64,000 bases of DNA, taken from the IMG/VR virus record IMGVR_UViG_2837229570_000001. One strand, written 5' to 3'. The translations under genes were made by a program, and so were the position numbers. The notes beneath the pieces are model-generated. The model was not told the origin of the DNA. It saw only the letters and a program-made list of their open reading frames with translations, and ran no database searches. This stretch comes from an uncultured virus (IMG/VR IMGVR_UViG_2837229570_000001) (Duplodnaviria; Heunggongvirae; Uroviricota; Caudoviricetes). Shown in pieces: positions 22,650 to 62,871 of the stretch (the first letter of the stretch is position 1; every line of letters begins with the position of its first letter).

Positions 22650-22659
22650 GGCTGCCTCC

Positions 22660-24360: not shown

Positions 24361-24566
24361 AAGCTCGCCTCAAACTTCCATGGGGGCTGCAGTCCGTCCC
24401 GTTCTTCTTCCAGTTCCGGGGTGGCAAGCACCACCCCGGAGCCAAAGATGAATGTGTCGATGTGCTGCGGATTCGCGGCCATAAGCACATCCGCGTGGTA
24501 TTCGTCCCCGTATACTTCCTTGGCGATCATGTCCCATGTATCGCCGCTCTTGGTCGTGTATGCCAT
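24357..24566 (-). CDS. Tail protein X (LysM-like)
   Basis: YTTKSGDTWDMIA..YG..LMAANP..PPWK. Confidence 0.85.
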   Translation of the reverse strand: MAYTTKSGDTWDMIAKEVYGDEYHADVLMAANPQHIDTFIFGSGVVLATPELEEERDGLQPPWKFEASL

Positions 24567-24578
24567 AGCTGCCTCCCG

Positions 24579-27500
24579 TCAATAGGCCGTCCGCATCCTG
24601 CGGTGCTGCATCTGCTCATACCATTCCTCAAACTGGCTGCGCATTTCCGCGATGGCCTGCTCCATGACAGAGGCATCCGCATTGCCCTGAATGATGATCT
24701 GCGGCGCAAAGGTCATGCTCTCGCCGCCGGGGTATGCGCCCCAGCCCTGATCGTCCCGCTCGATCTCGTCCAGCTTCACAGCGTTCACGCCCAGCATACG
24801 GCCCGCCTGCTCCCACAGGGAGATATTGCGCGCCCGCTCGCTGGATTTGAAGCTGATAACCGCCTCGCGCCCGGCTTCGCCCGCGATACTCGGCCCGGCA
24901 GTAAAGCCGCCCCGGGCAAGCATGGGGATTTCCGGGATATTGATGGAGAACGATTTGCCGCCGATCAGCGGCACCCAGTCCGGGATAGTCAAGCCCAGCT
25001 TATTGATGCCGGAAATAGCGGAGTTGATAAGGGAGATCACCGCGTTAATGGGAGTTTTGCACAGCGTCACCAGCGCGTCGAAAGCGTTGCCGAACACCTG
25101 CTTGATGCCGTCCCACGCCTGCTGCCAGTTGCCCGTGAACACGCCGGTGATAAAGGAGATCAGGCCGTCAAAGATGCCCTTGATATTCGCCATAAGGGCG
25201 CTGATGCCCTGTGCGAATACCGAGAACGCGGACAGCACTGCCGGGATGGCGACGCTGCCGATGTTGAGGATGATCTGGATGATAGCCTCGATGATGGGCA
25301 TGGCCGTCTGAATGGCAGAGCCAATGAGCTGCATCCCGGTCATAACCGCAGAGCCGATGCCGGAAATAATGCTGGCGATGGTCGGTGCCGCCGACGCGAA
25401 CATGGTCACGATGGTGGGCAGCACGGTTTGTGTGATGAATGTAAACGCCCGCTCAATGATGGGCTGTACGGTGTTTACCGAGAAAGAAACGAGCTGGCCG
25501 ACAACGCCCATGACGGACTGGATGATCTGCACCACGCCGTCAAAGGCGGCAAGGCCATTCTCCTGCCCGCCGAAGATGGTAGACAGCAATCCGCCCTTGC
25601 CCAGCGCCCCGGAAAACATTTCCCGCAGCGGTGCCAGCGCGTTTGCCACGCCGCCCTCTTGGAACAGCCCGGATATGAACTGACCAACGCCCTTGATCTT
25701 GTCGGTGAATGTGTCGAATATCACAAGGCCCTTTTCCCCGAACACATTGCCGACGATGCCCCGTATATCTTCCAGATGGTCGCCGAGGATGCTTACCACG
25801 GCAATGATGCCGCTGATCGCGCCCACCACGGGAGCCGCGCCCGCAAGCAGGCTTCCGAAGCCTCCCGCGATAGGCCCCCAGATGCTTCCCATCAAACCGG
25901 CACTGCCGCGCAGCAATCCGCCCGCCAGTTGCCCGCCTTTGGAATTGGCGAGGATATTGCCGTTGATGATGGCGCTCGCGCCGATGCCAGCGATACCCTT
26001 GCGGAGCGGAAGCGTCGCCGCGCTCAAAAGGCCGCCGATGCCGCTCTTGGCTGCCGCCGCCTTGCCGCCGATGAACCCGCCAGCTTTGTTCAGCAGCCCG
26101 CCCAAGAACTGTCCCGGTTTCGTGCCTCCGATCACGCTGCCCAGATTGCCCAAAGACGACCCGATGCCGCCGAGGTATTGTCCCGCTCGCGTGCCACCCA
26201 GAATACTTCCGATACTCTGATAGCCCGAAAGCAGCCCCGGTGTACCCGCCGCCGTTTGAAGCAGGCCGGTAGTGCCACGGAGGCCATTGCCGGAAATCAG
26301 GCTGGACAGCGTAGCGCCCAGTGTGGCCCGCAGGCCATTACTGCCCGCCGCGCCGGAGAAAGCGGAGATCGCTCCCGCTCCTGCCGCCGCCGCGCTCTGC
26401 CCGCCGGTAAAGAGGTTTTTCACACCGCCCAGCAGGCCGCCCAGCTTCCGCCCCTTTTCCTGCCCGGCACCGCCCGCAAACAGGCTTCCCATGCCGCCTT
26501 TGCCGGTCAACAGGGTTCCGATGCCGCGCGCCGCGCCCTCGATCTGCGGGGCGAATTTCATGCCGAGGAAAGCCGCGCCGATACCCTCAATGACCTTGAT
26601 TACCTTGTCGCCGTTGTTGACCAGATAATCAAGCGCCTGCTGGATGTAGGGCATGGCGGTTTTCAGCGCTTCTCCCGCCGATGCCACCCCGTTTGAAAGC
26701 AGCTTTGCCGCCGAGGTCGCCAGCGCGGTAAGCTCCGGCATATTCTTCCGTAGTCCGTTCATCGTGTCGATCATCATAAGAGAGAACTCTTTTTTGACCG
26801 GCAGGAATTGCGTTCCGATGTCGATTTTCAAAGCATCAAAGGAGTTTTTCATCATCGTGTCGATAGCGTCGCTGGTGCTCGCCTTGATGATAAATTCTCG
26901 CTCCATGCTGCCGCCGTAAAGGGCGGGGTCGGACACCATTTTCAGCGCGTCCGTAAATGTGGATAGGTTGCCGGTCAGCTTGGCCGCGCCCTTGATGGCC
27001 CACTGTCCAAACAGGGTATTCAAGGTCGCTACCTGCCGGGAAGCATCCATGTTGCCGATTCTTTCCAGCACATCCAGCATCGTGCCGGTCGCATCGGTCT
27101 GCATGGCCCTTGCCACGCCGGAGGCGGTAAGCCCCAGCTCCGCCCATGCCTCTTTCTGCTTTTTGGTGGCGCTCTCGCCCTTGGACATATTGACCAGCAT
27201 ACGGCTGATGCTGGTGCTTGCCACGCTGGAATCAACGCCCATCGCCAGCATAGCGTCTGCCAGCGCTGCGGTGGATGCTGCGTCCATGCCTGCGATGTCG
27301 CCGAGGGATGCCGCGCTGTTCACGACTTCGGCGATCTCCGCCGCCGTGGTAGCGCTGTTCGCGCCTAAGTAGTTGATCTGGTCAAACAGCACCATGACCT
27401 GCTCATGGGTCATGTTCAGAGATTTTTCCCATTTGGCCGCCCAGTTACCGGCCTGATCTGCGGTGATGTCCATAGCCGTGCCGACCATGGCAACATCTTT

Positions 27501-37031: not shown

Positions 37032-37268
37032 TTACACATCACGGGGGCAGAAGTGAAACAGGCGGTTTCTGCCACCCGCTTTTTCTTCGGCCTCCGCTTC
37101 TGCCAGCTTCTTGCCCCAGTATTCCATTTCCTCCCGTATCTCTTTGAGGTTCGCCCTCGTCAGCATACGGGTGCCGATTTGGTAGCTCTGCCCGGTTGCC
37201 ACGCTTTCCTCGGCGGCAAGCCAAGTGTTTAACTTCTGCTGGCAAAGCTCCTTTGTGAAAATAGCCAT
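37032..37268 (-). CDS. Head completion protein (gpW/DUF6148-like)
   Basis: GQSYQIGTRMLTRANL. Confidence 0.8.
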   Translation of the reverse strand: MAIFTKELCQQKLNTWLAAEESVATGQSYQIGTRMLTRANLKEIREEMEYWGKKLAEAEAEEKAGGRNRLFHFCPRDV

Positions 37269-39109
37269 TATCCGATTCCTCCGTTCAATCGTCTGCGTCC
37301 CTGCCGCTGCTTGGGCGGGGCGGCGGCTTCCTGTCTCAACTGCACGGGGTTGGCGATTTCAAGGGCCGCCGTGGCGTAATTGCGCAGGTCAAGGGGTTCA
37401 TTTCGCTTGTATTTCTCGTCTTTCAGCACCCACATGGTCGTCATGCGCCCCTTGCGGAATCGCGTCACCAGCTTTTCGCTGGTCAGTCCACGGAAATAAA
37501 GCTCGTCATATCCCGCTTCCTCCGCCGCCGGGAAATGGCAGTAGTTCGGCCCCTTGGTCTTATGGGCAAGCCGCTTGTAAAGCAGCGCCTTGCCCGCGTC
37601 AACGCCGAGGATGAACAGTGGTGCCTTGACCCGGTTGTTGGTGGACGGGTCTCTGATGTATGGAACATCCGCGCCGCCCTTGCCCTTGATGGCAAGCACG
37701 CGCCGGTCATATCGCTCTTTGCAGAACGAGTAAACCGCGTTGGCATGGTGGCCGCCGCTGTCCACGCAGCAGGCCAATATGCGCATGGGCGTACCGTCTT
37801 TTTTGTAGAACGCGCTCAACAAGAAAGCGTCAAGGTCGTTCCACACCTGTTCTTTCAGCAGGTCGCCGTATATCTTCTGATAGCGGATGCCCCAGCTCTC
37901 CTTGCCGATGCCCCAGCCGACCACTTCAACCTCAAAGCGATCATCCTGCACATCGACACCGGCTGTCAGCACCAGCACATCGTCCGGCACTTCCGCCTCA
38001 TAGATTTCCCGCCGCTGGAACAGGTCGCCGTCCTCCAACTGCTCGCCCTGTTCCTCCCATGTCTCGCCCAGCTCCGTGTTGACCCAGACTTTCATGCCCT
38101 CCGGGTTTCCCTGTTCAAGCTGTTCATGGGCAACGGCAAACTTCTGCACGATCTCGTTCCACCCGCAAAAGGTGGAAGCAAGGGTGTTCAGGTGGAAGCC
38201 CCGCGCCTCCGCCGTCGGATTTTCCGCCACGAAGCGCCCGCGTTTGCTGGCTTTCTTCCATGCGTATTCGCTGCTCAAAACGCCGCAGCGCTCGCAGGCG
38301 TATTCCACCGGCGCGGAGAGATCGTCTTTATCGAACTTGACCCCGCCCCACACAAGGGGCTGATAGTGCCCGCACTCTGGGCACGGTACATTCCATTCCT
38401 CCCGCGTGGACTGATTGAACTCTGTTTCAATGCGGCTGTGTCCCTTGATAACCGGGGTGCTGACCATAACGGTTTTCTTGTCCCAAAAGGTCGTCTGCCG
38501 CTTCTGGGCAAGGCTCAAAGGGTCGCCCTCGGTTCCGGCGCTGGTGGGGTATCGGTCTACCTCGTCGGCCAGCAGAACTTTGATCGGGCGGCTGGCAAGG
38601 CCGGTAGCACTGTTTGCGCCTACGATGGTGATGTGCCCGCCGGGGAAATTCTTTTTCAAGATCGTGTTCCCGGAGTATCGGCTTTTGGTATCGACCTTAT
38701 CCCGCAGCTCCGGCGTGTCCCGCAGCATAGGTGCAAGGCGGTCTTTGGAAAAGGTCTGCCCCATGTCCAATGTCGGCTGCATGACCAGCATCGGGGCGGG
38801 GGCGTAATCCATGTAGTAGCCGATGGTGTTCAGGATAAAGGCATCCGTTTTGCCGATCTGCGCAGCGGACATGATAACCACCTTGCGCACATGGGGGTCG
38901 CCGATGGCATCCATGATCTCCCTCTGATACGGGGCTTTGTCTGTGTGCCAGCGTCCCGGCTCCGCGCTGCTCTCCGCCGATAGCATCCTGTATCGGTCTG
39001 CCCACTGGGAAAGCGTCAGCTCCGGCGGCGGTTTCAACACCGCCACACATCGGGCCAGCATTTCCAGCGTGCTTTCCGGGATGTCAACGGTGCTGTTCCG
39101 GCTTGGCAT
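37268..39109 (-). CDS. Terminase large subunit (GpA family)
   Basis: SAQIGKT Walker A, LADEVD, GVDVQD and RNEPLD motifs. Confidence 0.95.
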   Translation of the reverse strand: MPSRNSTVDIPESTLEMLARCVAVLKPPPELTLSQWADRYRMLSAESSAEPGRWHTDKAPYQREIMDAIGDPHVRKVVIMSAAQIGKTDAFILNTIGYYMDYAPAPMLVMQPTLDMGQTFSKDRLAPMLRDTPELRDKVDTKSRYSGNTILKKNFPGGHITIVGANSATGLASRPIKVLLADEVDRYPTSAGTEGDPLSLAQKRQTTFWDKKTVMVSTPVIKGHSRIETEFNQSTREEWNVPCPECGHYQPLVWGGVKFDKDDLSAPVEYACERCGVLSSEYAWKKASKRGRFVAENPTAEARGFHLNTLASTFCGWNEIVQKFAVAHEQLEQGNPEGMKVWVNTELGETWEEQGEQLEDGDLFQRREIYEAEVPDDVLVLTAGVDVQDDRFEVEVVGWGIGKESWGIRYQKIYGDLLKEQVWNDLDAFLLSAFYKKDGTPMRILACCVDSGGHHANAVYSFCKERYDRRVLAIKGKGGADVPYIRDPSTNNRVKAPLFILGVDAGKALLYKRLAHKTKGPNYCHFPAAEEAGYDELYFRGLTSEKLVTRFRKGRMTTMWVLKDEKYKRNEPLDLRNYATAALEIANPVQLRQEAAAPPKQRQGRRRLNGGIG

Positions 39110-39224
39110 GGCCTTTCTCCTTTACGCAGAACGGAAAGAGGCACAGGTATTTCCGATCATCCACTTTCCGCCCCCAGACGCATCCCTTGCACTTGCACTT
39201 GTCTTTCTTCTCATTCTTCGCCAT
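39084..39224 (-). CDS. Small Cys-rich hypothetical protein (not in the ORF track)
   Basis: MAKNEKKDKCKCKGCVWG..CLFPFC; fills the gap between the terminase genes. Confidence 0.4.
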   Translation of the reverse strand: MAKNEKKDKCKCKGCVWGRKVDDRKYLCLFPFCVKEKGHAKPEQHR

Positions 39225-39693
39225 CTCCGTCACCGTCCCTTGCGGCAAAAGCCACGCGGTAATCGCTCAATTCCTCCAACGCCTCGTCGATAGCCTGTTT
39301 CAGCTCGTCAAAAATGGCGGTTTGGTTTCCGCCCATGCTGGCAAGCGTGGGGGAGAGCTTGGCGGGCAGCGCAAGGAAGCGCCCACGGATATTCAAAAAC
39401 ACGGTTTTCAATCCGGCTTCAATGTCCTGCGTGCGGTGCAGCTCGCCCATCCGCAGCTTGTTTTCCATCTCCGCCGCCTCGCGTTTGGCGCGGGTCAGCC
39501 CCGCCCGCTCGTCGTTGAGATTGATCTTCCCGCTGCCATTGCGCAGGAAAGTAATGTATTTCGTCACCGTCGCCTGCAGGTCGTAAAGCCCCGGCTGCTT
39601 TTCGGAGATCACGCCCTCGTCCCGGAGCTGCCGCACCCGGCGCTCGGTCAAACCCAGCCATGCCGCCACGACCTTACTTGTGTATAGCTTCAT
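39211..39693 (-). CDS. Terminase small subunit (Nu1-like)
   Basis: A.WLGLT.RRVRQL..EG.I HTH; ERA.L.RAKRE.AE. Confidence 0.85.
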   Translation of the reverse strand: MKLYTSKVVAAWLGLTERRVRQLRDEGVISEKQPGLYDLQATVTKYITFLRNGSGKINLNDERAGLTRAKREAAEMENKLRMGELHRTQDIEAGLKTVFLNIRGRFLALPAKLSPTLASMGGNQTAIFDELKQAIDEALEELSDYRVAFAARDGDGDGEE

Positions 39694-40460
39694 TCCGCGT
39701 CAACCTCCACGCCCTCGTCCGTTTCATCCTCCGGGCCTCCCACATCGAACGCGCCGGTGGCCCTCATGCGCATAATGTCGAGGCGTTCCCGCTCCAACGC
39801 CATGCGCTTTTCGCTCTCTTCCAGCGCACGCAGGCTGTCGGCAATCTTGGTAATGCGCCCCTGCACCTTGTAAAGCGCCTCCTGCAGTTTCATGCTTCTT
39901 GCAAAGGCGCTGTCCTTGGTATACATGCCCATGTTCTGATTTGCGCCGTCCTGCTTCTTATCGCCGCGCCCGCCGGGCACGCGCATATCAAGCAGGCTGC
40001 TGATGTGCAGGGTGTCCTCCGGCTCCGCCTCATACTGGGCGATCTTCTCCAATATGCGGTGCTCCCGCACCTTGGCGATTTTCAACTCATGTTCCAGTGC
40101 TTCCTTGCTCCCGGTGGGCGTAAGCTGTACGATCTCCCTCTCCGAATCGGTGAGCATATCAAAAAAGATGGTGCTGTAAGCTCCATCCTTTTCCGCGTTC
40201 TTATTCCCCAGCGGCGCGCCCTCATGGCTGCCCGCCGCGTTTTTATGACCGGCGCTGTTCTTGTTGCCCGGCTGCCCGCCCCGCTTTTTCTTCGGTAGGT
40301 CGGCATCCCATTTGTCAGCCGCTTTCCAATTCCGCAAGGTCTGATAGGTCACGCCCAGCGCATCGGCCAGCTCGCGCAGGTTCACTTTCTCGCCCCGCGC
40401 CTTTCGGGCGATGTAATCAGCCTTGGCGGTGTCGCGCTTCTCGCTCCGCTTCGGCATCAT
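39690..40460 (-). CDS. Terminase-small-subunit-related HTH protein
   Basis: LRELA..LGV..TLRNWK..DKW, GGQPGNKN and GNKNAEK motifs. Confidence 0.75.
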   Translation of the reverse strand: MMPKRSEKRDTAKADYIARKARGEKVNLRELADALGVTYQTLRNWKAADKWDADLPKKKRGGQPGNKNSAGHKNAAGSHEGAPLGNKNAEKDGAYSTIFFDMLTDSEREIVQLTPTGSKEALEHELKIAKVREHRILEKIAQYEAEPEDTLHISSLLDMRVPGGRGDKKQDGANQNMGMYTKDSAFARSMKLQEALYKVQGRITKIADSLRALEESEKRMALERERLDIMRMRATGAFDVGGPEDETDEGVEVDAE

Positions 40461-41199
40461 CACACCCCCAAAATAGACGGCGCACCCCACTTGGCCTACC
40501 TGAATACCCCGCGTAGGGACGCAAGGCTTCGGCCAAAACAGGGCGCACCAATAACAAAGCCCGCAGCGTTTTAAGCTGTGGGCCTGTTCTTCACGCTATG
40601 AATATATCATGGAAAACCTGTCAAAGTTGCCAACTCTCAAAAATTTTTCTTGCCCTCCCGCCGCCGCGTCACTTTTTACTTGACCGCCTCCCGGCGCAAG
40701 CGCCCTCAAAACACCGTAAGCCCTTGCGGCTGCTGCATTTCTTTACTTGCCTGCAATTTGCCGCCCCCAGCAAAATGGTTTTCGATGTTTTGTCGATCTC
40801 ACCATTTCGTTGACCTCGCCAAAATGGCGAAGCGCCGCGCCCGCTGGTTCCGCTTCGGTGCCCTCATGCCCCCGGTGGTGCCCATTGATTTGCCCCTCCC
40901 GCGTTTTTTGAACCCCCTCCTATTTTCCGCCGCCCCGCCGGGGAAGCCCTAAAAAAATGTTCACACCTACAAAACTTTTGCGCTTCTGAACCCGTAAGGC
41001 ATCGCGCGGGCGCGCGCAGTACCTACGCGCGTGCGCAGGTATAAAATCGCGCGCGTTTATATATCGCGTGGGCGTTTGAAAGTCGCGGGCGGGTGCGGCG
41101 GGCGGTCATTGCTTCGGCGGTGTGCCGGTGGTGGGCTGCTGCTGGTGCTGCTGGTGCTGGTGTTTGTGCCGGTGCTGGCGGTTGTGCCGGTGGTGCTGC

Positions 41200-41468
41200 T
41201 GGTGCCGGTGGTGATCGTCGGCGCGGCTGCCGGTGGTGAGGCTGCCGGGCGGGGCTGGTGATCTGCTGGCTGCCGGTGGTGCCGGTGATCGTCGGCGCGG
41301 CTGCCGTTGGTGAGGCCGTCGGGCGGGGCTGGTGATCCGCTGGCTGCCGGTGGTGCCGGTGATCGTCGGCGCGGCTGCCGTTGGTGAGGCCGTCGGGCGG
41401 GGCTGGTGATCCGCTGGCTGCCGGTGGTGCCGGTGATCGTCGGCGCGGCTGCCGGTGGTGAGGCCGTC
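41200..41468. repeat. Non-coding 74-bp GC-rich tandem repeat (~3.5 copies)
   Basis: GATCGTCGGCGCGGCTGCC at 41213, 41287, 41361 and 41435. Confidence 0.9.
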
Positions 41469-41675
41469 TGGCGGGGCCGCCAGTGTCGCCGGGGAAGTAT
41501 TTACCGCGCGCGGTATCGTCTCCCGAAAGGCTATATAATACGCCCCCTATACCCCCCAGCACAGCGTTTTAACAGAAATTCACCACGGGAAAAGCAACGC
41601 CCCAGCGGAGCCGCCGAAAAATTTTTCCCCCTACGGGGGAACATCCCCGCCCCGAAAAAAATTTCAAAAAAACGC

Positions 41676-41735
41676 TTGACATTTACACGGCACCGTGTTA
41701 CATTCATGGCACAGCAAGCGACACGGCACCGTGTC
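41676..41735 (+). promoter_or_regulatory. Strong sigma-A promoter with two ACACGGCACCGTGT operators
   Basis: A-rich UP element, TTGACA-17-TACATT with extended TG. Palindromes at 41685-41698 and 41720-41735. Confidence 0.8.
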
Positions 41736-41771: not shown

Positions 41772-42185
41772 ATGACGAACAACGAGATTATTTTTGAGAC
41801 TGTCCGCAGCAGCTTCACCCCCGCCCAGCTCGCCGATCTGGTCAACGCGACTTTCACCGCTGACCAGCTCAACGCCCGCCGCGCTGGCGTAAAGATCACC
41901 GTCGCCGAGGGCAGCGACGAAACCCCGGAAAGCGTGTTTAACGCCATGCTGGCCGCCGAGACTTTCCACACTTTCGCCGAGTGGAAGCGCATGGGGTACA
42001 GCGTGAAAAAGGGACAGCACGCCGCGCTTGTGTGCAATCTCTGGAAGTACACCGACAAGCCCGGCAAGGCCGCCCGCGAGGCCGCCGCCGCTGCTGGCGA
42101 GGATGCCCCGGAAAGCGACCCGCATTTTTACATGGCAAAGGCGCATCTTTTCCACGCCTTGCAGGTGGATAAGATCAGCAAGTGA
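41772..42185 (+). CDS. ArdC-like N-terminal (ssDNA-binding) domain protein
   Basis: HTFAEWKRMGYSVKKGQHA....LWK..LF...QV; AGGAGG RBS. Confidence 0.7.
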   Translation: MTNNEIIFETVRSSFTPAQLADLVNATFTADQLNARRAGVKITVAEGSDETPESVFNAMLAAETFHTFAEWKRMGYSVKKGQHAALVCNLWKYTDKPGKAAREAAAAAGEDAPESDPHFYMAKAHLFHALQVDKISK

Positions 42186-42195
42186 CCCCAGCGAC

Positions 42196-42242
42196 GCGGA
42201 CACTTTAGCAGGGCTGCACCGCACAAAGCAACCCCGCCCCAG
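42196..42242 (+). ncRNA. Motif A copy 1 (unassigned structured element, candidate ribozyme)
   Basis: Three intergenic copies with a compensatory change. Confidence 0.6.
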
Positions 42243-42286
42243 CCCATCGGGCATGAATCAAAATCAAACTTTGGAGGTTTTCAATT

Positions 42287-43216
42287 ATGGCAAAGCAAAA
42301 TTATTATGGCAGCTTCAACCCCAGCGCCGCCGCAAAGGCTCTGAAAATGGCCGACCGCTATTTCTGCCAGATCACCGAGGACGGCACAATTTACGCCGGT
42401 TCCGGCTATGTGCTTTTCAAGCTGACCCCCCACGACTACGCCGCCATTGTTCAGCCCGTCGCCTGCTGCGAGGCTGGCAACTGGACGATTGACCGCAACG
42501 GCAAGAGCGAAAGCAACATTGACGCGGCGCGCATCTTCTCCGAGGCCGTCAAGACCGCACAGAACGCCGCCGATCTGCAGTCCTGCCCGCTGGTTATCAA
42601 CTGCAAGAAAGACAAAAACCCCGCCGCCGCCTACTACAACGCCGAGGCCGATTTTGTAGCCCTTTACAATCCCGCATATCTCGCCGCTTTCCCCGGCGCG
42701 GCCATCCGCGCAAGCTCCGCTTGCAGCCCCGCGATCATGTATAACGGCGGGGAGGCCGTCGGGCTGGTAATGCCTATCCGCGCCGAACCCAAAGCCGCCC
42801 GCGCCGTTAAGGCATACTTTACCGAGGCCGACGACGACAACGACAACAACGCCGAGGCCGAGAAGCTGCGCGGCCAGTTGGCCGCCCGGAACGCCGAGCT
42901 GCTGGAAGCCCGCGACAAGATCAAAGCCCTGCGCGGTGAGATCAACGACCTGCAAGCGGAGGTTTGCGAGCTGTCCACCGTCAGCGCCGAGGCCGTGCCC
43001 GCCGCCGACAACAAGCCGGAACCCAAAACCGCCGCCGAGATCATCGCGGCGCGCTGGGCAGAGGTTGACGGCCTGACCGCAACTATCAAGGGCGCGCAGA
43101 CCGCCGCGCCGGTGGTGTGGCTTGCCGGTGACACAAAACCCCATGCAAAAGCCATCGAGGCCGACGGCGGCAAGTGGAGCGCCAAAAAGAACGCCTATTA
43201 TTTCCGCGTCGCCTGA
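42287..43216 (+). CDS. Hypothetical multidomain protein
   Basis: 309 aa; GLVMP.R, coiled coil, WL.GDTKPH..G.KWS.KK.A.Y. Confidence 0.7.
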   Translation: MAKQNYYGSFNPSAAAKALKMADRYFCQITEDGTIYAGSGYVLFKLTPHDYAAIVQPVACCEAGNWTIDRNGKSESNIDAARIFSEAVKTAQNAADLQSCPLVINCKKDKNPAAAYYNAEADFVALYNPAYLAAFPGAAIRASSACSPAIMYNGGEAVGLVMPIRAEPKAARAVKAYFTEADDDNDNNAEAEKLRGQLAARNAELLEARDKIKALRGEINDLQAEVCELSTVSAEAVPAADNKPEPKTAAEIIAARWAEVDGLTATIKGAQTAAPVVWLAGDTKPHAKAIEADGGKWSAKKNAYYFRVA

Positions 43217-43220
43217 CACA

Positions 43221-43293
43221 ACCCGCAAGGCCGACGGCATCCGCCGCCGCTGGTGCAAGCCCAGCCGCCCCACCGGGGCGGGCGCTCATGGGT
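43221..43293 (+). ncRNA. Twister-sister self-cleaving ribozyme, copy 1
   Basis: ACCCGCAAGGCCGACGGCATCCGCCGCCGCTGGTGCAAGCCCAGCC-hairpin-GGGCGCTCATGGGT matches, from memory, the four-way-junction twister-sister ribozyme. Confidence 0.85.
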
Positions 43294-43329
43294 CACAATC
43301 CAAACCAAAAAAACAGGAGGTAAAACACT

Positions 43330-43929
43330 ATGATGCTTGAAGAATTTGAAAGCCGTACCGGCTTTTATCCCACCCGCGACCTTTACAGCCGAATTGAAGC
43401 GGCTTACATGGAAAGCGGACTTGACAAAGACAGCTTTTGCGCCGCGTACAAAGAAAACCGCGACGGCATAGCGGAGGCAATCGCACGGGATGCCGCTTTT
43501 GATGAAATCAAGGCCGCCACCCAGCGAGAAAGCGAAATCAAGAAGCTGCAAGAGCAGGTCGCCCAGCTTACAAAACAGCTTGATCGGGAACTCGAATGGA
43601 AGCCCTACGAACTGTCGCAGAATGTGCCGCAAGCAGATTATGCAAAGCTTGCCGCCGGTGCCGAAAGCGGGCTATGCGCTCACTACATGACCGACGAGGA
43701 AGCAATCAAATGGATTTGTGACGAGTTTGATTTTGACCCGGCAAAGATCACGATCATTCACGAAGTCCCGGAATACGAAATCAACCGTCACAACCAGCTC
43801 CGCAAAACTGGGAAAATGTACGACTGCCGCCCGGTTTACTGTGCTACCGATTATCACTACATCCGCTTCAACACAAAGCGCTGGTTCTATGAGGTCTGGA
43901 ACGGCCAGCTCCGCCCGTTCTACGCATAA
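43330..43929 (+). CDS. Hypothetical protein
   Basis: 199 aa; MMLEEFE.RTG..Y..IE..YM....DKD.FC; AGGAGG RBS. Confidence 0.7.
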   Translation: MMLEEFESRTGFYPTRDLYSRIEAAYMESGLDKDSFCAAYKENRDGIAEAIARDAAFDEIKAATQRESEIKKLQEQVAQLTKQLDRELEWKPYELSQNVPQADYAKLAAGAESGLCAHYMTDEEAIKWICDEFDFDPAKITIIHEVPEYEINRHNQLRKTGKMYDCRPVYCATDYHYIRFNTKRWFYEVWNGQLRPFYA

Positions 43930-43935
43930 CCCACA

Positions 43936-44009
43936 ACCCGCAAGGCCGACGGCATCCGCCGCCGCTGGTGCAAGCCCAGCCGCCCCCGCCGGGGCGGGCG
44001 CTCATGGGT
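43936..44009 (+). ncRNA. Twister-sister self-cleaving ribozyme, copy 2
   Basis: Identical to copy 1 except for the loop of the last hairpin. Confidence 0.85.
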
Positions 44010-44044
44010 CACAACCCAAAACCACAAAACAGGAGGTTTTCATC

Positions 44045-44488
44045 ATGGCAGCAACAACACGCCCCATCCCCGGCATCTTCTCCAAGGTTCCCGGCGGCTA
44101 CGCACAGCAGATCAACGAGCAGACAACGCTTTTTGTCCCGGATATGTGCGCCGCCAGTTTTAACCCCGACACCGGCGATCTTCGCGGCTACGCTCCCGAC
44201 TATGAAGCGCTGGAAGCTGCAAAGGCTCCCGCCGTCCACGCTGACAAACCCGGCGAATATTCCTATTGCTACGAAATGCAAAAGGCTCCAACGGGCTGCG
44301 ACTTCGCCGCCGATCTCTCCTATTACGGCAAGCACTACTTTCTCCGGCCACTCCGCGACGATCTCCCGCAGCTCCACGGGCGCGGCATCAGCTACGATGA
44401 AAAGCGTAACACCTATACGGTCACGCTCCGCGCCTATGAGAAGCTCAAAGAGCAATACCGCATCCGATACGAAACCTGCCTTGATTGA
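44045..44488 (+). CDS. Hypothetical protein
   Basis: 147 aa from MAATTRPIPG; AGGAGG RBS. Confidence 0.7.
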   Translation: MAATTRPIPGIFSKVPGGYAQQINEQTTLFVPDMCAASFNPDTGDLRGYAPDYEALEAAKAPAVHADKPGEYSYCYEMQKAPTGCDFAADLSYYGKHYFLRPLRDDLPQLHGRGISYDEKRNTYTVTLRAYEKLKEQYRIRYETCLD

Positions 44489-44495
44489 CCCCCAC

Positions 44496-44544
44496 CCGGA
44501 CACTTTCGCGGGGCTGCACCGGCACACAAAGCAACCCCACCCCA
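44496..44544 (+). ncRNA. Motif A copy 2
   Basis: CCGGACACTTTCGCGGGGCTGCACCGG..AAAGCAACCCC. Confidence 0.6.
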
Positions 44545-44589
44545 TAAGCAAAACCCAAAACCCAAAAATCCAAAACGGAGGTACACAAA

Positions 44590-45504
44590 ATGTCTGTTAC
44601 TTACTACCCGATCAACGAGGACACCGCCCGCAACGCGCATTACATGGTACACATGAGCGACTACAAGCCCGGCAGCGCCACGGCCGGCTACCGCGCCGCC
44701 GTGGACGAGGCCGCCGCGCTGGTGGAGGCGCAGAAAGCCAAGGTCAGCCCCTACTATCACGACAAGCTGGACGGCCTGCTTGACCGCTACGCCCGCCGCC
44801 TTGCCGAGTGGACGAACGACTACAACCGCAATCAGGCCAGCTATCCCAGCCAGTTTATTTCCGGGGCGGGCGGCTTCAATATGCGCAAGCACAACAAGCA
44901 GATGGCGCGGGAAGATACCCTCTGGAAAGAGTACGACGAGATCAAAGCCCTGCTGCACAAGATGGAAAGTGTCGGCACCGGCCCGGTCGATCTGGCAGAC
45001 CCCCACGCCCGTGAAATCCTCACCGACCAGCTCCAAAAGCTCCAAGCCCGGCTTGACCGCAACAAGGCTATGAACGCCTATTATCGCAAGCACAAATCCT
45101 TTGCCGGTTTCCCGGAGCTGACCGACGAGGCCGCCGCCCGGCTCGATGCACAATTTGCCGAAACCCGGCAGCAGTGCCCGTGGATTGACAAGCCGTGCCC
45201 CGACTATGAATTGACCAGCCTGCGCGGCAAGATTAAGCGCGTGGAAGAACGCATTGCGGAGCTGGACAAACGCGCCCAGCAGGCGGAGCAGCCCGCCGAC
45301 AACACAGCTTTCCCCGGCGGCGAGATCGTCCGCAATCTGGAAGCCGACCGGCTGCAGATCATCTTCGACGAAAAGCCCGACGAGGACACCCGCGCCGCCC
45401 TGAAACAAAACGGCTTCCGCTGGTCGCCCCGGTACGGCGCATGGCAGCGCCAGTTGACCCAAAACGCAGAATCCGCCGCCCGCCGCGCTCTTGGCCTGAA
45501 ATAA
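44590..45504 (+). CDS. DUF3560-like/polyvalent-type protein
   Basis: PS..ISGAG.F..RK; N.EADRLQIIFD.KPD..R..LK.NGFRWSP..AWQRQLT. Confidence 0.65.
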   Translation: MSVTYYPINEDTARNAHYMVHMSDYKPGSATAGYRAAVDEAAALVEAQKAKVSPYYHDKLDGLLDRYARRLAEWTNDYNRNQASYPSQFISGAGGFNMRKHNKQMAREDTLWKEYDEIKALLHKMESVGTGPVDLADPHAREILTDQLQKLQARLDRNKAMNAYYRKHKSFAGFPELTDEAAARLDAQFAETRQQCPWIDKPCPDYELTSLRGKIKRVEERIAELDKRAQQAEQPADNTAFPGGEIVRNLEADRLQIIFDEKPDEDTRAALKQNGFRWSPRYGAWQRQLTQNAESAARRALGLK

Positions 45505-45548
45505 TCAAAAGCCCGCCCCGGAGGTAACGAGGGCAGAAAGGACATAAA

Positions 45549-45743
45549 ATGTGTCTTACACAGCAGAACGCCGCCCAGTTTGTCGGCAAGTCCCTGTTTG
45601 GCGGGCACTTCCATTATTGGCCTCTGCGTGTCATTCAACACAAAAACGGCCTGTATTACTACATTGACCGTTTCGGCGTTATGATGAAATGCCCAGACCA
45701 AAACGACCTTTTCAACGCGGTTTATTTCAGCCGAGCCGAATAA
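45549..45743 (+). CDS. Small hypothetical protein
   Basis: 64 aa; AAAGGA RBS. Confidence 0.55.
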   Translation: MCLTQQNAAQFVGKSLFGGHFHYWPLRVIQHKNGLYYYIDRFGVMMKCPDQNDLFNAVYFSRAE

Positions 45744-45781
45744 CCGCCGCAACCATTTTCGTGACCTCACGAAAAAGATAC

Positions 45782-45828
45782 CCGGACACTTTCGCAGGGC
45801 TGCACCGGCCAAAGCAACCCCGCCCCAG
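45782..45828 (+). ncRNA. Motif A copy 3
   Basis: CCGGACACTTTCGCAGGGCTGCACCGGCCAAAGCAACCCCGCCCC. Confidence 0.6.
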
Positions 45829-45871
45829 AAGCAAAAACCCAAGAACATAACACAAAACGGAGGTACAAACC

Positions 45872-46108
45872 ATGTTCACCGTTCCCGCAGGCACCCCGCT
45901 CTACACAAAAGAGCATGACGGCACCGTACAGCGCTGGTATCTGTTCGGCTGGTACGGCGATACCTTTTCCGTCGCGCCTCGCAAAAACGCCAAGCTGCGC
46001 GACTACAAGCGCTATTATTCCGCCGCCGACATCGGCCAGACTATCTACAAGACCCGCAAAGAGGCCGCCGCCGCGCCCTGTCCCGCCACAGTCTACCAGC
46101 CCCGCTAA
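45872..46108 (+). CDS. Small hypothetical protein
   Basis: 78 aa; GGAGG RBS. Confidence 0.6.
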   Translation: MFTVPAGTPLYTKEHDGTVQRWYLFGWYGDTFSVAPRKNAKLRDYKRYYSAADIGQTIYKTRKEAAAAPCPATVYQPR

Positions 46109-46116: not shown

Positions 46117-46145
46117 TAGACAGTAACACGACATCGTGTTATAAT
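46117..46145 (+). promoter_or_regulatory. Sigma-A promoter with an AACACGACATCGTGTT operator in its spacer
   Basis: TAGACA-17-TATAAT; palindrome at 46125-46140. Confidence 0.8.
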
Positions 46146-46434: not shown

Positions 46435-46653
46435 ATGCCCATAGCCGCATCCAAACGCCGCAACAACGATATTTACAACGCCAAGTGTGACCGCATCAGC
46501 GCCCGCCCCTTAAAGCCCGTCGGCAACGCCATCCGCGCCGCCGCGCAGGCCGCCGGGCAGAGCGTGCAGGCGTATGTGCTGCAAGCCTGTGAAGAACGCA
46601 TGACCCGTGAAGGCCGCCCCTTGGAACTGGACAAACCGCCCGATGAAACATGA
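46435..46653 (+). CDS. Ribbon-helix-helix (Arc-like) regulator
   Basis: YNAK.DRIS.R......IRAAA..AGQSV.AYV..A..ERM. Confidence 0.7.
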   Translation: MPIAASKRRNNDIYNAKCDRISARPLKPVGNAIRAAAQAAGQSVQAYVLQACEERMTREGRPLELDKPPDET

Positions 46654-56052: not shown

Positions 56053-56965
56053 TCAAAACCATTTCATCTGAATGTCACCATCCAGCATTGACCATTTGAA
56101 AGTCTTGTCGCCCGGCAACAATATCCCGGCATCTTCAAGCGCAAACCGCCGGTCATAATCGTGTACTGTGTGGCCGTCCGGCTTAAAGCTCACTGGGCTG
56201 TCACTGTCCCATTTCATAAGTAATTTCCATAGATCAGGGTACATCTGCCGCAGCTTCCGCATCTGATCTATGCCTTGGTTATGGCAGAACCAGCAACCGC
56301 CGCGCGTAGCCGTCGTGTAAATCGGCGACAATAGCCCGGCGTATTTGCACCATAGGCCGCAATAATCTTCTTCCCATCCCAGTTCTACCAGCGGAAGAAG
56401 TACGCCCGGTTTGGTATGGCGCGCTATTCGCTCCCGCTCGTCAGCCGCTATTCCAAAGTAATGCACAGTATTTGTGTTCGCGCCCCGTGCGGCGCAGGCA
56501 GAAAAGCCCTCTGTTTCAGATCGCTGGTGCACCAATTTCCCTTTATCATCGGGAAGCCTCTTATCAGCGCACCCCCCCCGCGTTATCTAATGGGTTGGTT
56601 TTTAATCTGTCGTTGCACCAAGCGCCTTTCTGATACGGAAATCCCGCCGGACTGCCGCCAGTAAACTTTCCTCCGGGTTTTCTGTTCGGTACATGGTAAA
56701 AAAGCTGTTCGTATGTGCGCTTTGTTCCATCGGCATTTCGCGCGCATATATGTTCAACTTCAATGCCCCATCGGCGTTTTATTTCATCATCCGCATACTG
56801 CTTAAACTCGACCATCGGGGGAGGGTCTGCCGGAATCGTATCGGTTGCCCACACATCAGCGGTTACGATACGATGAAGCGGCCAGCCCAGCAGCTCGATT
56901 GCCCGCAGGCACGCCATGCTGTCTTTGCCATATGAAAGGCTCAATACATATTCTTCCGTAGGCAT
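56053..56965 (-). pseudogene. PAPS-reductase/PP-loop-like gene split at a G8 tract (possibly phase-variable)
   Basis: LSLSYGKDS half and GIAADE..RGGCWFC half lie in different frames; C8 at 56572-56579. Confidence 0.75.
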
Positions 56966-57043
56966 CCCCGCCGCCCTCCTTTGCTTGGTCTTTCTGGGCC
57001 GGTGCTGTTTTGTGCCCGCACAACCGGCCAAAGCGGGATGTAT

Positions 57044-60944: not shown

Positions 60945-62537
60945 ATGGCAAAGAAAAAAGAAAGCCCCGCCGCCGGTGAGCGCCTTGCGGCGTACTACCG
61001 ATACAGCGGGGGAGGCGGGCAGACCGAACAGAGCATAGAGGGCCAGCGCCGGGATTGCGAGGCATGGGCAAAAGCCCACGGCATGACGATCTGCCGGGAG
61101 TATATCGACCGGCATATCTCCGGCAAGACGGATAACCGCGCGCAGTTTCAGCGCATGATGGAGGACAGCGACAAGCACGCCTTTGACATCCTGATCTGCT
61201 GGAAAACTGACCGTCTCGCCCGGAACCGCTACGACAGCGCCATTTATAAAAGCCGCCTGCGGAAAAACGGGATAAAGATCGTCTATGCCGCCGAAAGCTC
61301 CGTGGATGGCCCGGAGGGCATCATTCTGGAGGGCTTGATGGAAAGCCTCGCGGAGTATTATAGCGCAGAGCTGTCTCAAAAGCTCCGGCGCGGCATCCGT
61401 GAAAGCGCCTTGAAATGTCATTCTCTCGGCGGCTACCATGCCCTCGGCCTGACCTCCAACAAGAACCATGAATTTGTGATCGACGAAACGCAGGCCCCGA
61501 CTGTGCGCTATATCTTCCAACAGTACGCCGCCGGGCAGTCCTCCGCCGCCATCGTCGCCGATCTCAACGCCAAGGGCAAGCGCACGGCCACCGGCGGGGT
61601 GTTCAACAAAAACAGCATCATGCGCATTGTCACCAATGAGCAGTATATCGGCACCTATATCAGCAAGGCCCACAATGTCCGGGTGGAGAACGCCATCCCC
61701 GCCATTATCGACCGGGAGCTATGGGACAAGGTGCAGGCAATGGTGCAGTATAACCGGGCAGGGAGAGCGCCGCACACCAAGCGCGCCAATTATATGCTTT
61801 CCGGCAAGCTGTTTTGTAAGCTCTGCGACAGCTCTATGAAAGGTATCTCCGGCACCGGCAAGCACGGCGAGAAGCACTATTACTACGCCTGTTCAAAGCA
61901 CACCATCCACCAGTGCGAAAAACACAATATCGAAAAGAGCTATCTTGAAAACCTGATTGCCTCCGCCACCGCTGATTATATCCTTGCCCCCGGCAAGCTG
62001 GAACAGATCGCCGACCGGGTGATTGCCGTCCAGCTCGCCGACCAGCACCGGGAAAATCCCGAAAAAGAAATGTTGGAAGCGGAACTGTCCGAAAATGTCC
62101 GAAAGCAAGATAACATCATGCGCGCCATTGAGGACGGAACCGGCAGCGCCCGGCTCTCTGCCCGGCTGCGTGATCTCGAAGAACAGGAAAGCATACTGCG
62201 CGCCCAACTGGCCGCCATTGATGAACCCGCCGCCGCGCCGGTCTATGACCGTGACCAGCTCATTTTTATGCTGTCCCAATTCCAGCGCGGCCCGGACGAA
62301 CAGGACGAGGAATACAAGCAGCGGCTCATAGATACTTTTGTCCATGCCGTCTATCTCACTGACGAAATAGCCTTTGTGCAATTTAACATAACCGACCCCG
62401 AAAAAGCAGAAAGCACCACGCTCGAAAGCGTGATGCTTGATCTGCTCCACGGTAAACCCATCGCGGAAAACCCCAGTAATTCGGGGCTTTCCGCCGGGTT
62501 CGACCGGGTTTCACTTGGTGGAGGCGGGGGGAGTTGA
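60945..62537 (+). CDS. Large serine recombinase (integrase)
   Basis: AYYRYS..QTEQSIEGQ, DRLARN, LSGKLFC..C and YYYAC motifs; the stop codon lies within tmRNA. Confidence 0.93.
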   Translation: MAKKKESPAAGERLAAYYRYSGGGGQTEQSIEGQRRDCEAWAKAHGMTICREYIDRHISGKTDNRAQFQRMMEDSDKHAFDILICWKTDRLARNRYDSAIYKSRLRKNGIKIVYAAESSVDGPEGIILEGLMESLAEYYSAELSQKLRRGIRESALKCHSLGGYHALGLTSNKNHEFVIDETQAPTVRYIFQQYAAGQSSAAIVADLNAKGKRTATGGVFNKNSIMRIVTNEQYIGTYISKAHNVRVENAIPAIIDRELWDKVQAMVQYNRAGRAPHTKRANYMLSGKLFCKLCDSSMKGISGTGKHGEKHYYYACSKHTIHQCEKHNIEKSYLENLIASATADYILAPGKLEQIADRVIAVQLADQHRENPEKEMLEAELSENVRKQDNIMRAIEDGTGSARLSARLRDLEEQESILRAQLAAIDEPAAAPVYDRDQLIFMLSQFQRGPDEQDEEYKQRLIDTFVHAVYLTDEIAFVQFNITDPEKAESTTLESVMLDLLHGKPIAENPSNSGLSAGFDRVSLGGGGGS

Positions 62538-62871
62538 ACCCCCGTCCGAAAACGTTTGAACGGGAACTTCTCCGGGCGCAGACGGTTTTTTAAGATTCCC
62601 TTCCCCAAGCGCGAGCCGTCACGCTCAGAGGGTCGGTAGCTTCATGATGCATGGTGCGCTCAAAGCTTTGCGCACGCACGGTCCCCACTCAAATGACGCC
62701 CCAATCCGGCTCGTGGGCCTTCCGGTTGGAACGGTCGCGGGCTAGTTAGGCCGCGACGAGTTCGCAGTTATCGTTGTTCTTTAATTTATAAAGAGTGCCC
62801 GTTTTTAGAAGGTCAGGCGCCTTCGCCCGCTATTCCCGCCTCCGCGTCCCCGTCGAAACCGGTACGCCCCC
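62516..62871 (-). ncRNA. ssrA: tmRNA; tag peptide (A)KNNDNCELVAA
   Basis: 5' GGGGGCG pairs with CGCCUCC-ACCA including G3.U; GGUUUCGAC 5' motif; T-arm GGGGGUUCAACUCCCC; smpB nearby. Confidence 0.95.

What the first reader, a model, noticed from the sequence alone, without database searches (positions are those of the whole stretch)
43221..44009. Two twister-sister ribozymes bracketing one phage gene
Seen: 43221-43293 and 43936-44009 are near-identical and differ only in a hairpin loop. Established: they match, as I recall it, the four-way-junction twister-sister ribozyme (ACCCGCAAGGCCGACGGC...GCUGGUGCAAG.CCAGCC...GGGCGCUCAUGGGU), which cleaves at C^A. Predicted cuts are 43287/43288 and 44003/44004. 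Inference: the 199-aa gene is released as a monocistronic 5'-OH mRNA. The biological role of this ribozyme class is poorly understood, and here its full genetic context is visible.
Basis: partly seen in the sequence, partly recalled or inferred. Interest (0 to 1): 0.75.

Follow-up and report, generated by a model that had tools for sequence, protein, structure and literature searches.

The report
Twister-sister ribozyme pair in prophage operon
Two genuine self-cutting twister-sister RNAs flank a small phage gene, as part of a five-element array that probably chops one long phage message into single-gene pieces; the arrangement is a known kind whose purpose is still untested.

Summary
Rfam's twister-sister model (RF02681, cut-off 34 bits) hits 43218-43298 (83.7 bits) and 43933-44014 (86.5 bits), both on the + strand. 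The two cores differ only in the P5 loop. The C^A cut sites at 43287/88 and 44003/04 fit the published C62-A63 site.

The pair is not a stand-alone device. It sits in a Toutatis-like prophage beside tmRNA. Five consecutive intergenic gaps of one + strand operon carry RAGATH-5, TS, TS, RAGATH-5, RAGATH-5. These are the only copies in the 3.2-Mb genome.

In 18 related viral loci the layout recurs. The ribozyme lies within 11 nt of a stop codon, and a CA-rich leader of about 40 nt runs to a strong SD-ATG. TS, RAGATH-5 and hammerhead-II swap at the same junctions.

The TS pair marks a gained cassette. Relatives have B-TS-D without the 199-aa gene, and TS plus leader is duplicated around it.

The most likely function is co-transcriptional cutting into single-gene mRNAs. 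This was proposed for hammerheads in 2011 and is not shown here. I file it as a new member of a known kind.

The parts
41676..41704 (+). Promoter-like site (TTGACA-17-TACATT with TG) for the operon. Two copies of the palindrome ACACGGCACCGTGT lie at 41685-41698 and 41721-41734.
   Evidence: consensus scan and exact pattern; function inferred
41772..42185 (+). Gene A, 137 aa, ArdC-N-like (anti-restriction-like). It is just below the Pfam cut-off.
   Evidence: phrog_34979 E 2.5e-30; PF08401 21.3 bits against cut-off 22.6
42196..42248 (+). RAGATH-5 motif no. 1, starting 10 nt after the stop codon of gene A
   Evidence: (64.1 bits, cut-off 50)
42287..43216 (+). Gene B, 309 aa, unknown function, conserved in related modules
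43218..43298 (+). Twister-sister ribozyme 1 (core 43221-43293). The predicted cut is between C43287 and A43288. The model starts 1 nt after the stop codon of gene B.
43288..43329 (+). 42-nt CA-rich leader left on gene C after the cut. UGGGU...AUCCA can form a 5'-terminal hairpin. SD is AGGAGG.
43330..43929 (+). Gene C, 199 aa, conserved hypothetical protein. It is the variable cassette.
43933..44014 (+). Twister-sister ribozyme 2 (core 43936-44009). The predicted cut is between C44003 and A44004. The model starts 3 nt after the stop codon of gene C.
44045..44488 (+). Gene D, 147 aa, unknown function. It is the most conserved ribozyme-flanked gene of the module (67-85% aa identity in many loci).
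44496..44551 (+). RAGATH-5 motif no. 2, starting 7 nt after the stop codon of gene D
   Evidence: (54.3 bits)
44590..45504 (+). Gene E, 304 aa. It matches phrog_19458, annotated 'primase', and is 67.5% nt-identical to the FP_Toutatis 'primase' gene.
45549..45743 (+). Gene F, 64 aa, no family match
45782..45834 (+). RAGATH-5 motif no. 3
   Evidence: 59.9 bits
45872..46108 (+). Gene G, 78 aa, the last gene before the second promoter-like site at 46117-46145

Best explanation
Both elements are intact four-way-junction twister-sister self-cleaving ribozymes. They are transcribed as part of one operon of about 4.4 kb (genes A-G, 41772-46108) in a Toutatis-like prophage. As RNA polymerase passes each ribozyme, it folds and cuts at C^A. 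The upstream mRNA then ends in a compact GC-rich ribozyme body with a 2',3'-cyclic phosphate. The downstream mRNA starts with a 5'-OH and a standard G-poor leader of 41-42 nt. In that leader the freed GGGU strand snaps onto a nearby (A)CCCA to make a 5'-terminal hairpin, followed by a strong SD and ATG. Gene C would thus be released as a 716-nt single-gene RNA (43288-44003). Together with the three RAGATH-5 motifs, the operon is punctuated at five consecutive junctions. The ribozyme-plus-leader unit behaves as a portable insulator that travels with gene cassettes. The near-identical pair exists because cassette C was inserted at the B|D junction with a duplication of that unit. Shown here: ribozyme identity, layout, duplication, cassette polymorphism, and interchangeability of the RNA classes. 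Inferred: transcription as one unit, cleavage in vivo, and effects on stability and translation.
For: Identity: RF02681 scores 83.7 and 86.5 bits against a cut-off of 34, over the full-length model with all core nucleotides. The MFE fold of each core reproduces the four helices. Among 52 TS copies the helices covary. The P1 outer pair is A-U 30, G-C 12, C-G 4, G-U 2 and A-C mismatch 4. The third pair of P4 is U-A 43, C-G 8 and one mismatch. P5 has many compensated variants. The cut site matches C62-A63.

Operon: there is one strong promoter-like site at 41676-41704 and no + strand terminator-like site before 46117.

Layout in the window plus 18 viral loci: the TS model starts -4 to +11 nt from the upstream stop codon in 44 of the 49 cases that have a stop within 150 nt (52 TS in all). 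The distance from the cut to the next SD-ATG is 39-61 nt in 40 of 48 cases, median 43.5. Leaders are 86% A+C against 56% background. The 5'-terminal hairpin appears in the MFE of 38 of 44 cleaved leaders, against 1681 of 4400 shuffled leaders.

Single-gene bracketing: 44 of 57 adjacent element pairs, of which 27 are TS-TS.

Interchangeability: the B|next junction carries TS, RAGATH-5 or hammerhead-II in different loci, and the D|E junction carries TS or RAGATH-5. FP_Toutatis has seven RAGATH-5 matches (six over the cut-off) and no TS in the homologous module.

Cassette gain: L053, L107 and L114 have B-TS-D, and both window TS copies align to their single TS. A metatranscriptome contig joins 43216 to 43932.

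Precedent: clustered hammerheads flank single genes in prophages, were shown to cut in vitro and in E. coli, and processing into single-gene mRNAs was proposed (PMC3088659 passages; review PMC6765202).
Against: There is no direct evidence of transcription or cleavage. All runs that hold the stretch are kept as contigs, which cannot show RNA ends. The leader is G-poor and weakly structured whether or not it is cut, so cleavage is not obviously needed to expose the SD. The selective benefit (stability, stoichiometry, insulation) is therefore conjecture. RAGATH-5 is not known to self-cleave: the review says that further motifs found by this approach did not cleave, and that RAGATH-5 is among them is my recollection. 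Calling all five elements processing sites is thus an assumption. The 18 loci were picked by me, not at random, as multi-copy loci and loci with homologues of the window's genes. They are related to each other, so the counts are descriptive and the shuffle control overstates independence.
Confidence: 0.62

Rival explanations
1. Splicing or circle formation. Cutting at both ribozymes gives a 716-nt RNA with 5'-OH and 2',3'-cyclic-phosphate ends. Its two ends together rebuild one twister-sister P1. Ligation would give a circular gene C mRNA, or would join the outer pieces into a B-TS-D message.
For: The two copies have identical P1 strands, so the ends of the excised piece are complementary. Perreault et al. 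raised this possibility for tandem hammerheads. The X6 contig that joins 43216 to 43932 has exactly the sequence such a splice would give.
Against: No RtcB (PF01139) was found in the 99.98%-complete host genome, while the control rang in 10 of 14 known genomes. In X4 and X6 the gene C interval 43243-43877 has no cover at all, and the joining contig differs from the window at 4 positions. It is better read as a relative that lacks gene C, like the viral loci L053, L107 and L114. Perreault et al. looked for spliced and circular products and found none. The leader hairpin would pull the 5' end away from P1.
Confidence: 0.06
2. The conserved elements matter mainly at the DNA level, as about 100-nt homology patches at which phages exchange gene cassettes. 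RNA cleavage would be incidental or only weakly selected.
For: Homology blocks between the window and other viral loci begin and end at the elements: 43304-43321, 43919-43937, 44494 and 44554. Contig joints at 43216>43932, 44009>44558, 43294>44558 and 42252>45854 all lie at TS or RAGATH-5 borders. Copies within a locus are more alike than copies between loci (mean 0.92 over 69 pairs against 0.87 over 1257), and they share the P5 variant even where P3 differs.
Against: Three unrelated RNA folds, two of them proven ribozyme classes, occupy the same junctions. Each keeps its catalytic core and compensatory base pairs, which selection on DNA homology alone would not maintain. Strand and spacing relative to stop and start codons are fixed. 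I treat cassette exchange as a consequence of the RNA function, not a replacement for it.
Confidence: 0.12
3. Conditional switch. Cleavage is not constitutive but is modulated, for example by the ribosome terminating 1-3 nt upstream and covering P1/L1, or by Mg2+ or a factor. It would set the ratio of coupled to uncoupled expression of the neighbouring genes.
For: The stop codon lies -4 to +11 nt from the ribozyme in 44 of 49 cases. A terminating ribosome would therefore cover the 5' strand of P1 and the conserved GCAAG; the size of the ribosome footprint comes from general knowledge.
Against: The tight spacing can equally be plain genome compaction. No aptamer-like extra domain is present. 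Twister-sister ribozymes cut without cofactors in 2 mM divalent ions.
Confidence: 0.12
4. Inactive relics of a duplication, with no present function.
For: Activity was not tested. One copy could be redundant.
Against: Both copies keep every consensus core position and all pairs, and their only differences lie in a loop. The arrangement is conserved in dozens of phage contigs.
Confidence: 0.03

Closest known systems
Four-way-junction twister-sister ribozyme (Rfam RF02681; structure in Zheng et al. 2017, PMC5660989; discovery paper Weinberg et al. 2015 not held, recalled)
   Same: It gives a full-length model match. It has the same L1 (GCAAG / CGCUCAU) and SL4 loop (GUGCAAGCC), the same four helices, and the same C^A scissile step.
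   Different: Nothing structural differs. Here two copies sit 715 nt apart in a complete bacterial genome, with their promoter, genes and prophage visible.
Clustered hammerhead ribozymes flanking single genes in prophages (Perreault et al. 2011, PMC3088659, passages read)
   Same: Several same-strand ribozymes bracket individual genes whose identity varies. They are linked with anti-restriction genes (ardA there, an ArdC-N-like gene here). Processing of a long phage transcript was proposed.
   Different: The ribozyme class here is twister-sister mixed with RAGATH-5. Cleavage was shown there in vitro and in E. coli, but not here.
RAGATH-5 array of Faecalibacterium phage FP_Toutatis (MG711466)
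   Same: The module is homologous: 'primase'-like gene E, converging on the Q-like regulator, endonuclease and replication genes, with a large serine recombinase. Gaps of about 100 nt between genes are filled by structured RNA.
   Different: Toutatis has seven RAGATH-5 matches and no twister-sister. The ribozyme content is not annotated in the record, and the word 'ribozyme' does not occur in Cornuault et al. 2018.
Synthetic ribozyme insulators placed between promoter or upstream gene and RBS (RiboJ-type parts; recalled, no paper read)
   Same: This is a works-like comparison. A self-cleaving ribozyme directly upstream of a defined leader plus RBS gives every gene the same 5' end whatever lies upstream.
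   Different: The system here is natural, uses a different ribozyme class, and the insulating effect is untested.
Ribozyme-flanked circular RNAs (viroid-like RNAs, retrozymes; Tornado design recalled)
   Same: Two like ribozymes flank a segment and leave 5'-OH and 2',3'-cyclic-phosphate ends.
   Different: The host has no RtcB. The segment is an ordinary SD-led ORF in a DNA phage operon. No circle junction was seen.

Membership tests
Twister-sister ribozyme (RF02681) | Covariance-model score at or above the gathering score (34 bits) over the full model | tested here: met
   83.7 and 86.5 bits, model positions 1-81 of 81, E 7e-18 and 1e-18
Twister-sister ribozyme (RF02681) | Conserved loop nucleotides of L1 (G5 C6 A7 A8 G9; C58 G59 C60 U61 C62 A63 U64) and of the SL4 loop | tested here: met
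   GCAAG, GUGCAAGCC and CGCUCAU are present in both copies. Residue numbering is from PMC5660989 passages.
Twister-sister ribozyme (RF02681) | Four-way junction with helices supported by base pairing and covariation | tested here: met
   No non-canonical pair is flagged. The MFE gives the same helices. P1, P4 and P5 covary among 52 copies.
Twister-sister ribozyme (RF02681) | Site-specific self-cleavage at C^A giving 2',3'-cyclic phosphate and 5'-OH | not testable with these tools
   The runs available were contigs only. This needs a cleavage assay or end mapping.
RAGATH-5 motif (RF02685) | Covariance-model score at or above 50 bits | tested here: met
   64.1, 59.9 and 54.3 bits at 42196, 45782 and 44496
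RAGATH-5 motif (RF02685) | A known biochemical activity | not testable with these tools
   None is known to me. The review states that further motifs from that screen did not cleave.
Ribozyme-punctuated prophage operon (Perreault 2011 type) | Several same-strand self-cleaving RNAs flanking single genes inside a prophage | tested here: met
   The prophage genes are terminase, a large serine recombinase and replication genes. Five same-strand elements are present. Three single-gene intervals lie in the window.
Ribozyme-punctuated prophage operon (Perreault 2011 type) | Processing of the polycistronic RNA at the ribozymes | not testable with these tools
   As above
Integron-like cassette array (considered) | Tyrosine integrase IntI next to the array and attC recombination sites | tested here: not met
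   No ORF between 41400 and 46700 matches an integrase in Pfam or PHROGs. The only recombinase is a serine integrase at 60945-62537. The inter-gene elements are RNA families, not attC.

The most novel reading that the evidence does not exclude
Ribozyme-plus-CA-leader units are natural, portable expression insulators that define the cassette borders of a fast-shuffling accessory module (probably anti-defence) of Toutatis-like gut phages. Three unrelated RNA folds (twister-sister, hammerhead-II, RAGATH-5) are swapped at the same junctions. RAGATH-5, with its covarying 5'-tail/loop pseudoknot, must therefore also be an RNA-processing site: either an unrecognised self-cleaver or a nuclease target. 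After the cut, a conserved product-trap hairpin (GGGU with CCCA) seals the new 5'-OH end. The near-identical TS pair would be the footprint of a recent cassette capture.
Probability: 0.3. Interest if true: 0.6.

Novelty: new member of a known kind. Interest (0 to 1): 0.38.

Why it matters
The biological role of twister-sister and of the other phage-borne self-cleaving RNAs is still open. My searches of the held library found no paper that settles it, and the 2019 review says so. This locus does not change what is known about the kind. It does offer a clean test bed: a complete 3.2-Mb genome with one prophage that holds the genome's only two TS and three RAGATH-5 copies in one operon, close relatives with and without the bracketed cassette, and a published F. 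prausnitzii prophage (FP_Toutatis) that has RAGATH-5 at the equivalent junctions. One end-specific RNA-seq experiment on such a lysogen would show whether TS cuts in vivo, whether RAGATH-5 sites are processed, and what the cut does to neighbouring genes.

Tried and rejected
1. RNA evidence. The look-up of sequencing runs listed 17 runs, none holding half of the words, and all were kept as Logan contigs. Laying X4, X6, X1 and X2 gave no table of molecule starts or ends, so cleavage could not be tested. The absence of cover over gene C in X4 and X6 is used only together with the joining contig.

2. Primary discovery paper. Weinberg et al. 2015 is not held, either by DOI or by PMC4509812. What I say about RAGATH-5 being inactive, and about the original genomic contexts of TS, rests on reviews and on recall.

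3. Paper searches. 'twister-sister' + 'RAGATH' and 'twister-sister' + 'prophage' + 'self-cleaving' gave 0 papers. Two k-turn/JAR3D papers concern RAGATH-18 only. Weinberg 2017 has no RAGATH text. The phage hot-spot preprint describes a different Toutatisvirus hot spot, between tail genes and integrase.

4. Function of gene C. It has 348 homologues, all unnamed and without Pfam domains. The AlphaFold model is confident (pLDDT 92.2). Foldseek against PDB gave 0 matches at E <= 0.001, and VIA-align wide gave a best Z of 5.1 on the long helix only. No function can be assigned.

5. Genes D, F and G have no Pfam or PHROG match. Gene I gives only sub-threshold ribbon-helix-helix-like hits.

6. Earlier findings by place returned nothing for this genome.

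7. The Rfam 'evalue' scan of 20000-64000 added no further ribozyme, only a sub-threshold ylbH hit.

Full report
OBSERVATION. Cores 43221-43293 and 43936-44009 are identical except for the P5 loop, ACC versus CGCC. The repeat extends from 43217 to 43321 and from 43932 to 44037, through the leader to the Shine-Dalgarno sequence, at 91-95% identity. Rfam's twister-sister model (RF02681, gathering score 34 bits) matches 43218-43298 at 83.7 bits and 43933-44014 at 86.5 bits. Both matches are on the + strand, cover the full-length model, and have no non-canonical pair flagged. A scan of the whole 3,224,506-base, single-contig genome finds only these two. In the other 14 genomes of the genus no match reaches the cut-off; one scores 29.2 bits. 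The passages I read of Zheng et al. 2017 (PMC5660989) place the scissile step at C62-A63 within C58-G59-C60-U61-C62-A63-U64, opposite G5-C6-A7-A8-G9. The ORF between the copies is 43330-43929, 199 aa.

SURROUNDINGS. The window holds a prophage.
- The terminase large subunit is at 37268-39109 (-) and terminase small-subunit genes are at 39211-40490 (-).
- Replication, endonuclease, methylase and dUTPase genes lie on the - strand between 47400 and 58300.
- A CI-like HTH gene and a large serine recombinase (60945-62537) abut tmRNA at 62516-62871.
- Gene E is 67.5% nt-identical to the 'primase' gene of Faecalibacterium phage FP_Toutatis. The gene order around it is the same, and Toutatis-type prophages use a large serine recombinase (table in Cornuault et al. 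2018).

The ribozymes lie in the only + strand block of the prophage. I read its genes as:
- A: 41772-42185, ArdC-N-like; PF08401 scores 21.3 bits, just under its 22.6 cut-off, and phrog_34979 gives E 2.5e-30.
- B: 42287-43216.
- C: 43330-43929.
- D: 44045-44488.
- E: 44590-45504.
- F: 45549-45743.
- G: 45872-46108.
- H and I follow.

Rfam also finds three RAGATH-5 motifs at 42196-42248, 44496-44551 and 45782-45834. These are again the only ones in the genome. The five consecutive junctions therefore read:
- A|B: RAGATH-5
- B|C: TS
- C|D: TS
- D|E: RAGATH-5
- F|G: RAGATH-5

A strong promoter-like site (TTGACA-17-TACATT, 41676-41704) with two copies of the palindrome ACACGGCACCGTGT precedes gene A. 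No + strand terminator-like site lies between it and a second promoter-like site at 46117-46145. One A-G transcript of about 4.4 kb is therefore plausible but not shown.

RELATED SEQUENCES. Many stretches hold two to five matches. I chose 18 loci, taking multi-copy ones and ones with homologues of the window's genes, so they are not a random sample. Rfam found 50 TS, 19 RAGATH-5, 2 hammerhead-II and 1 DUF3800-VIII in them, and within each locus all ribozymes are on one strand.

With the window included there are 52 TS and 22 RAGATH-5.
- The TS model starts -4 to +11 nt from the upstream stop codon in 44 of the 49 cases with a stop within 150 nt. The other five are at 18, 18, 56, 59 and 98 nt, and three have no such stop.
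- The distance from the cut to the next SD-preceded start is 39-61 nt in 40 of 48 cases, median 43.5. The window's values are 42 and 41.
- RAGATH-5 shows the same placement: stop-to-motif distance is -13 to +15 nt in 21 of 22 cases.
- Leaders behind all three RNA classes are 86% A+C against a 56% background and end in AGGAGG-like SDs.
- Of 57 adjacent element pairs, 44 enclose a single predicted ORF. Twenty-seven of these are TS-TS.

Two twister-sisters bracketing one gene is therefore the usual state of these arrays. The gene most often bracketed is D, not C.

INTERCHANGEABILITY. The gene order A-B-(variable)-D-E-...-H-I is conserved, but the RNA class at a junction is not. After B comes TS (window, L024, L072, L053, L065), RAGATH-5 (L061) or hammerhead-II (L077, L006). 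Between D and E comes RAGATH-5 (window) or TS (L076, L019, L079, L016, L012). FP_Toutatis has seven RAGATH-5 matches, six over the cut-off, in its homologous module and no TS. This is the logic by which the RAGATH motifs were found. The 2019 review states that further structures from that screen did not cleave and have unknown function. That RAGATH-5 is one of them is my recollection.

THE PAIR IS A CASSETTE DUPLICATION.
- Gene C is rare near TS. Among the loci it appears only in L039.
- Eight viral loci encode homologues of C (46-65% identity). Five have a ribozyme-family hit within about 500 nt: one TS, three hammerhead-II of which two are over the cut-off, and one twister-P5 just under it. 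None is bracketed on both sides.
- Viral loci L053, L107 and L114 carry B-TS-D, and both window TS copies align to their single TS. In L053 the two HSPs overlap by 117 nt.
- A contig of a pig-gut metatranscriptome run (X6) joins 43216 to 43932 with 55 shared letters. X4 and X6 have no cover over 43243-43877.
- Other contig joints (44009>44558, 43294>44558, 42252>45854) and the blastn block ends (43304-43321, 43919-43937, 44494, 44554) fall at the RNA elements.
- Copies within a locus are more alike than copies between loci (mean identity 0.92 over 69 pairs against 0.87 over 1257). Some share the P5 variant while differing in P3.

I read this as recombination at the conserved ribozyme-leader units, which moves cassettes in and out. 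C is a recent gain.

MECHANISM. The best reading is the one proposed for clustered prophage hammerheads by Perreault et al. 2011. Those flank single genes of varying identity. They cut in vitro and in E. coli. They are linked to ardA. [quoted passage not shown]

Applied here, the cut leaves gene B's and gene C's mRNAs ending in a GC-rich ribozyme body. The MFE of each core is -36 to -37 kcal/mol, although that is no better than shuffles of the same GC-rich composition. Genes C and D receive a 5'-OH leader.

One detail I did not find in the papers I read. In the cleaved leader, the freed P1 strand (U)GGGU pairs with a nearby (A)CCCA to form a hairpin that starts at nucleotide 2. This occurs in the MFE of 38 of 44 TS leaders, against 38% of shuffled leaders (1681 of 4400). 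The sequences are related to each other, so this is a hint. Such a hairpin would hinder re-association with P1. By analogy with 5'-terminal stem-loops known to stabilise bacterial mRNAs (general knowledge, not tested), it could also protect the new end.

Because the leader is G-poor with or without the cut, unmasking of the SD is unlikely to be the point. Insulation of each cassette from its upstream neighbour and separate decay rates are the more likely benefits (inference).

RIVALS. Circular or spliced RNA is possible in principle because the two P1 halves match. However, the host lacks RtcB (control positive in 10 of 14 genomes). The C-less contig is better explained as a C-less relative. 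Perreault et al. did not detect such products. A purely DNA-level role does not explain conserved catalytic cores and compensatory pairs in three different folds. A translation-coupled switch is allowed by the tight spacing between stop codon and ribozyme but has no specific support.

WHAT WAS NOT POSSIBLE. Cleavage in vivo or in vitro could not be tested. The discovery paper of twister-sister and RAGATH-5 (Weinberg et al. 2015) is not held. Gene C has no assignable function despite a confident model.

VERDICT. The functional inference is reasonable, already in print for the sister case of hammerheads, and untested here. This is a new member of a known kind. Its value is as a tractable test bed and for the accompanying RAGATH-5 elements, not as a new kind of system.

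Noticed in passing
window 42196-42248, 44496-44551, 45782-45834; alignment A2 (29 RAGATH-5 copies from the window, viral loci and FP_Toutatis): The conserved 5' tail NCGG of RAGATH-5 can pair with CCGN in its hairpin loop, forming a pseudoknot. The outer pair covaries (C-G 12, G-C 7, G-U 1, U-A 1, unpaired 2, gaps 6). The second pair is C-G 27, G-C 1. 97% of cells are paired, against at most 50% when the partner is slid. I could not check whether Rfam or the 2015 paper already draws this pseudoknot.
   Followed up: partly
L142 (FP_Toutatis MG711466, record 13983-24770): 1489-1544, 1973-2024, 2606-2655, 3167-3216, 4213-4265, 4819-4868, 5831-5884: A published F. prausnitzii prophage carries seven RAGATH-5 matches (six over the cut-off) in successive intergenic gaps of about 100 nt. 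None is annotated in the record.
   Followed up: partly
window 40481-40547 (-): A DUF3800-VIII RNA (61.6 bits, cut-off 40.2) overlaps the start of the terminase small-subunit gene (39690-40490, -). A promoter-like site lies at 40633-40606 (-). It looks like the leader of the late/packaging operon rather than a partner of a DUF3800 gene. L081 has one in the same relative position.
   Followed up: no
window 41128-41477: Between the terS promoter region and the ribozyme operon lie a run of 9-nt repeats (41128-41219) and three to four 74-nt tandem repeats (41195-41477). They might be iterons or a packaging site; this was not examined.
   Followed up: no
window 46117-46145 and 46126-46139: A second + strand promoter-like site (TAGACA-17-TATAAT, 11 of 12) lies before genes H and I. 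It contains ACACGACATCGTGT, a 2-mismatch relative of the palindrome at the first promoter, which suggests one regulator for both. Gene I (46435-46653) gives only sub-threshold ribbon-helix-helix-like hits.
   Followed up: partly
window 60945-62537 (+) and 62516-62871 (-): The 3' end of the large serine recombinase gene overlaps the 3' end of tmRNA by 22 nt. The prophage therefore appears to be integrated at the tmRNA gene.
   Followed up: no
window 56053-56535 (-) and 56564-57031 (-): Two adjacent ORFs match successive parts of PHROG 424 ('PAPS reductase'; profile positions 268-383 and 150-259). This could be a split gene or a two-gene form.
   Followed up: no
L008 3197-4846 (oriented coordinates), L079, L081: Some viral contigs carry four to six twister-sister copies in a row. 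In L008 all four cores are identical.
   Followed up: partly
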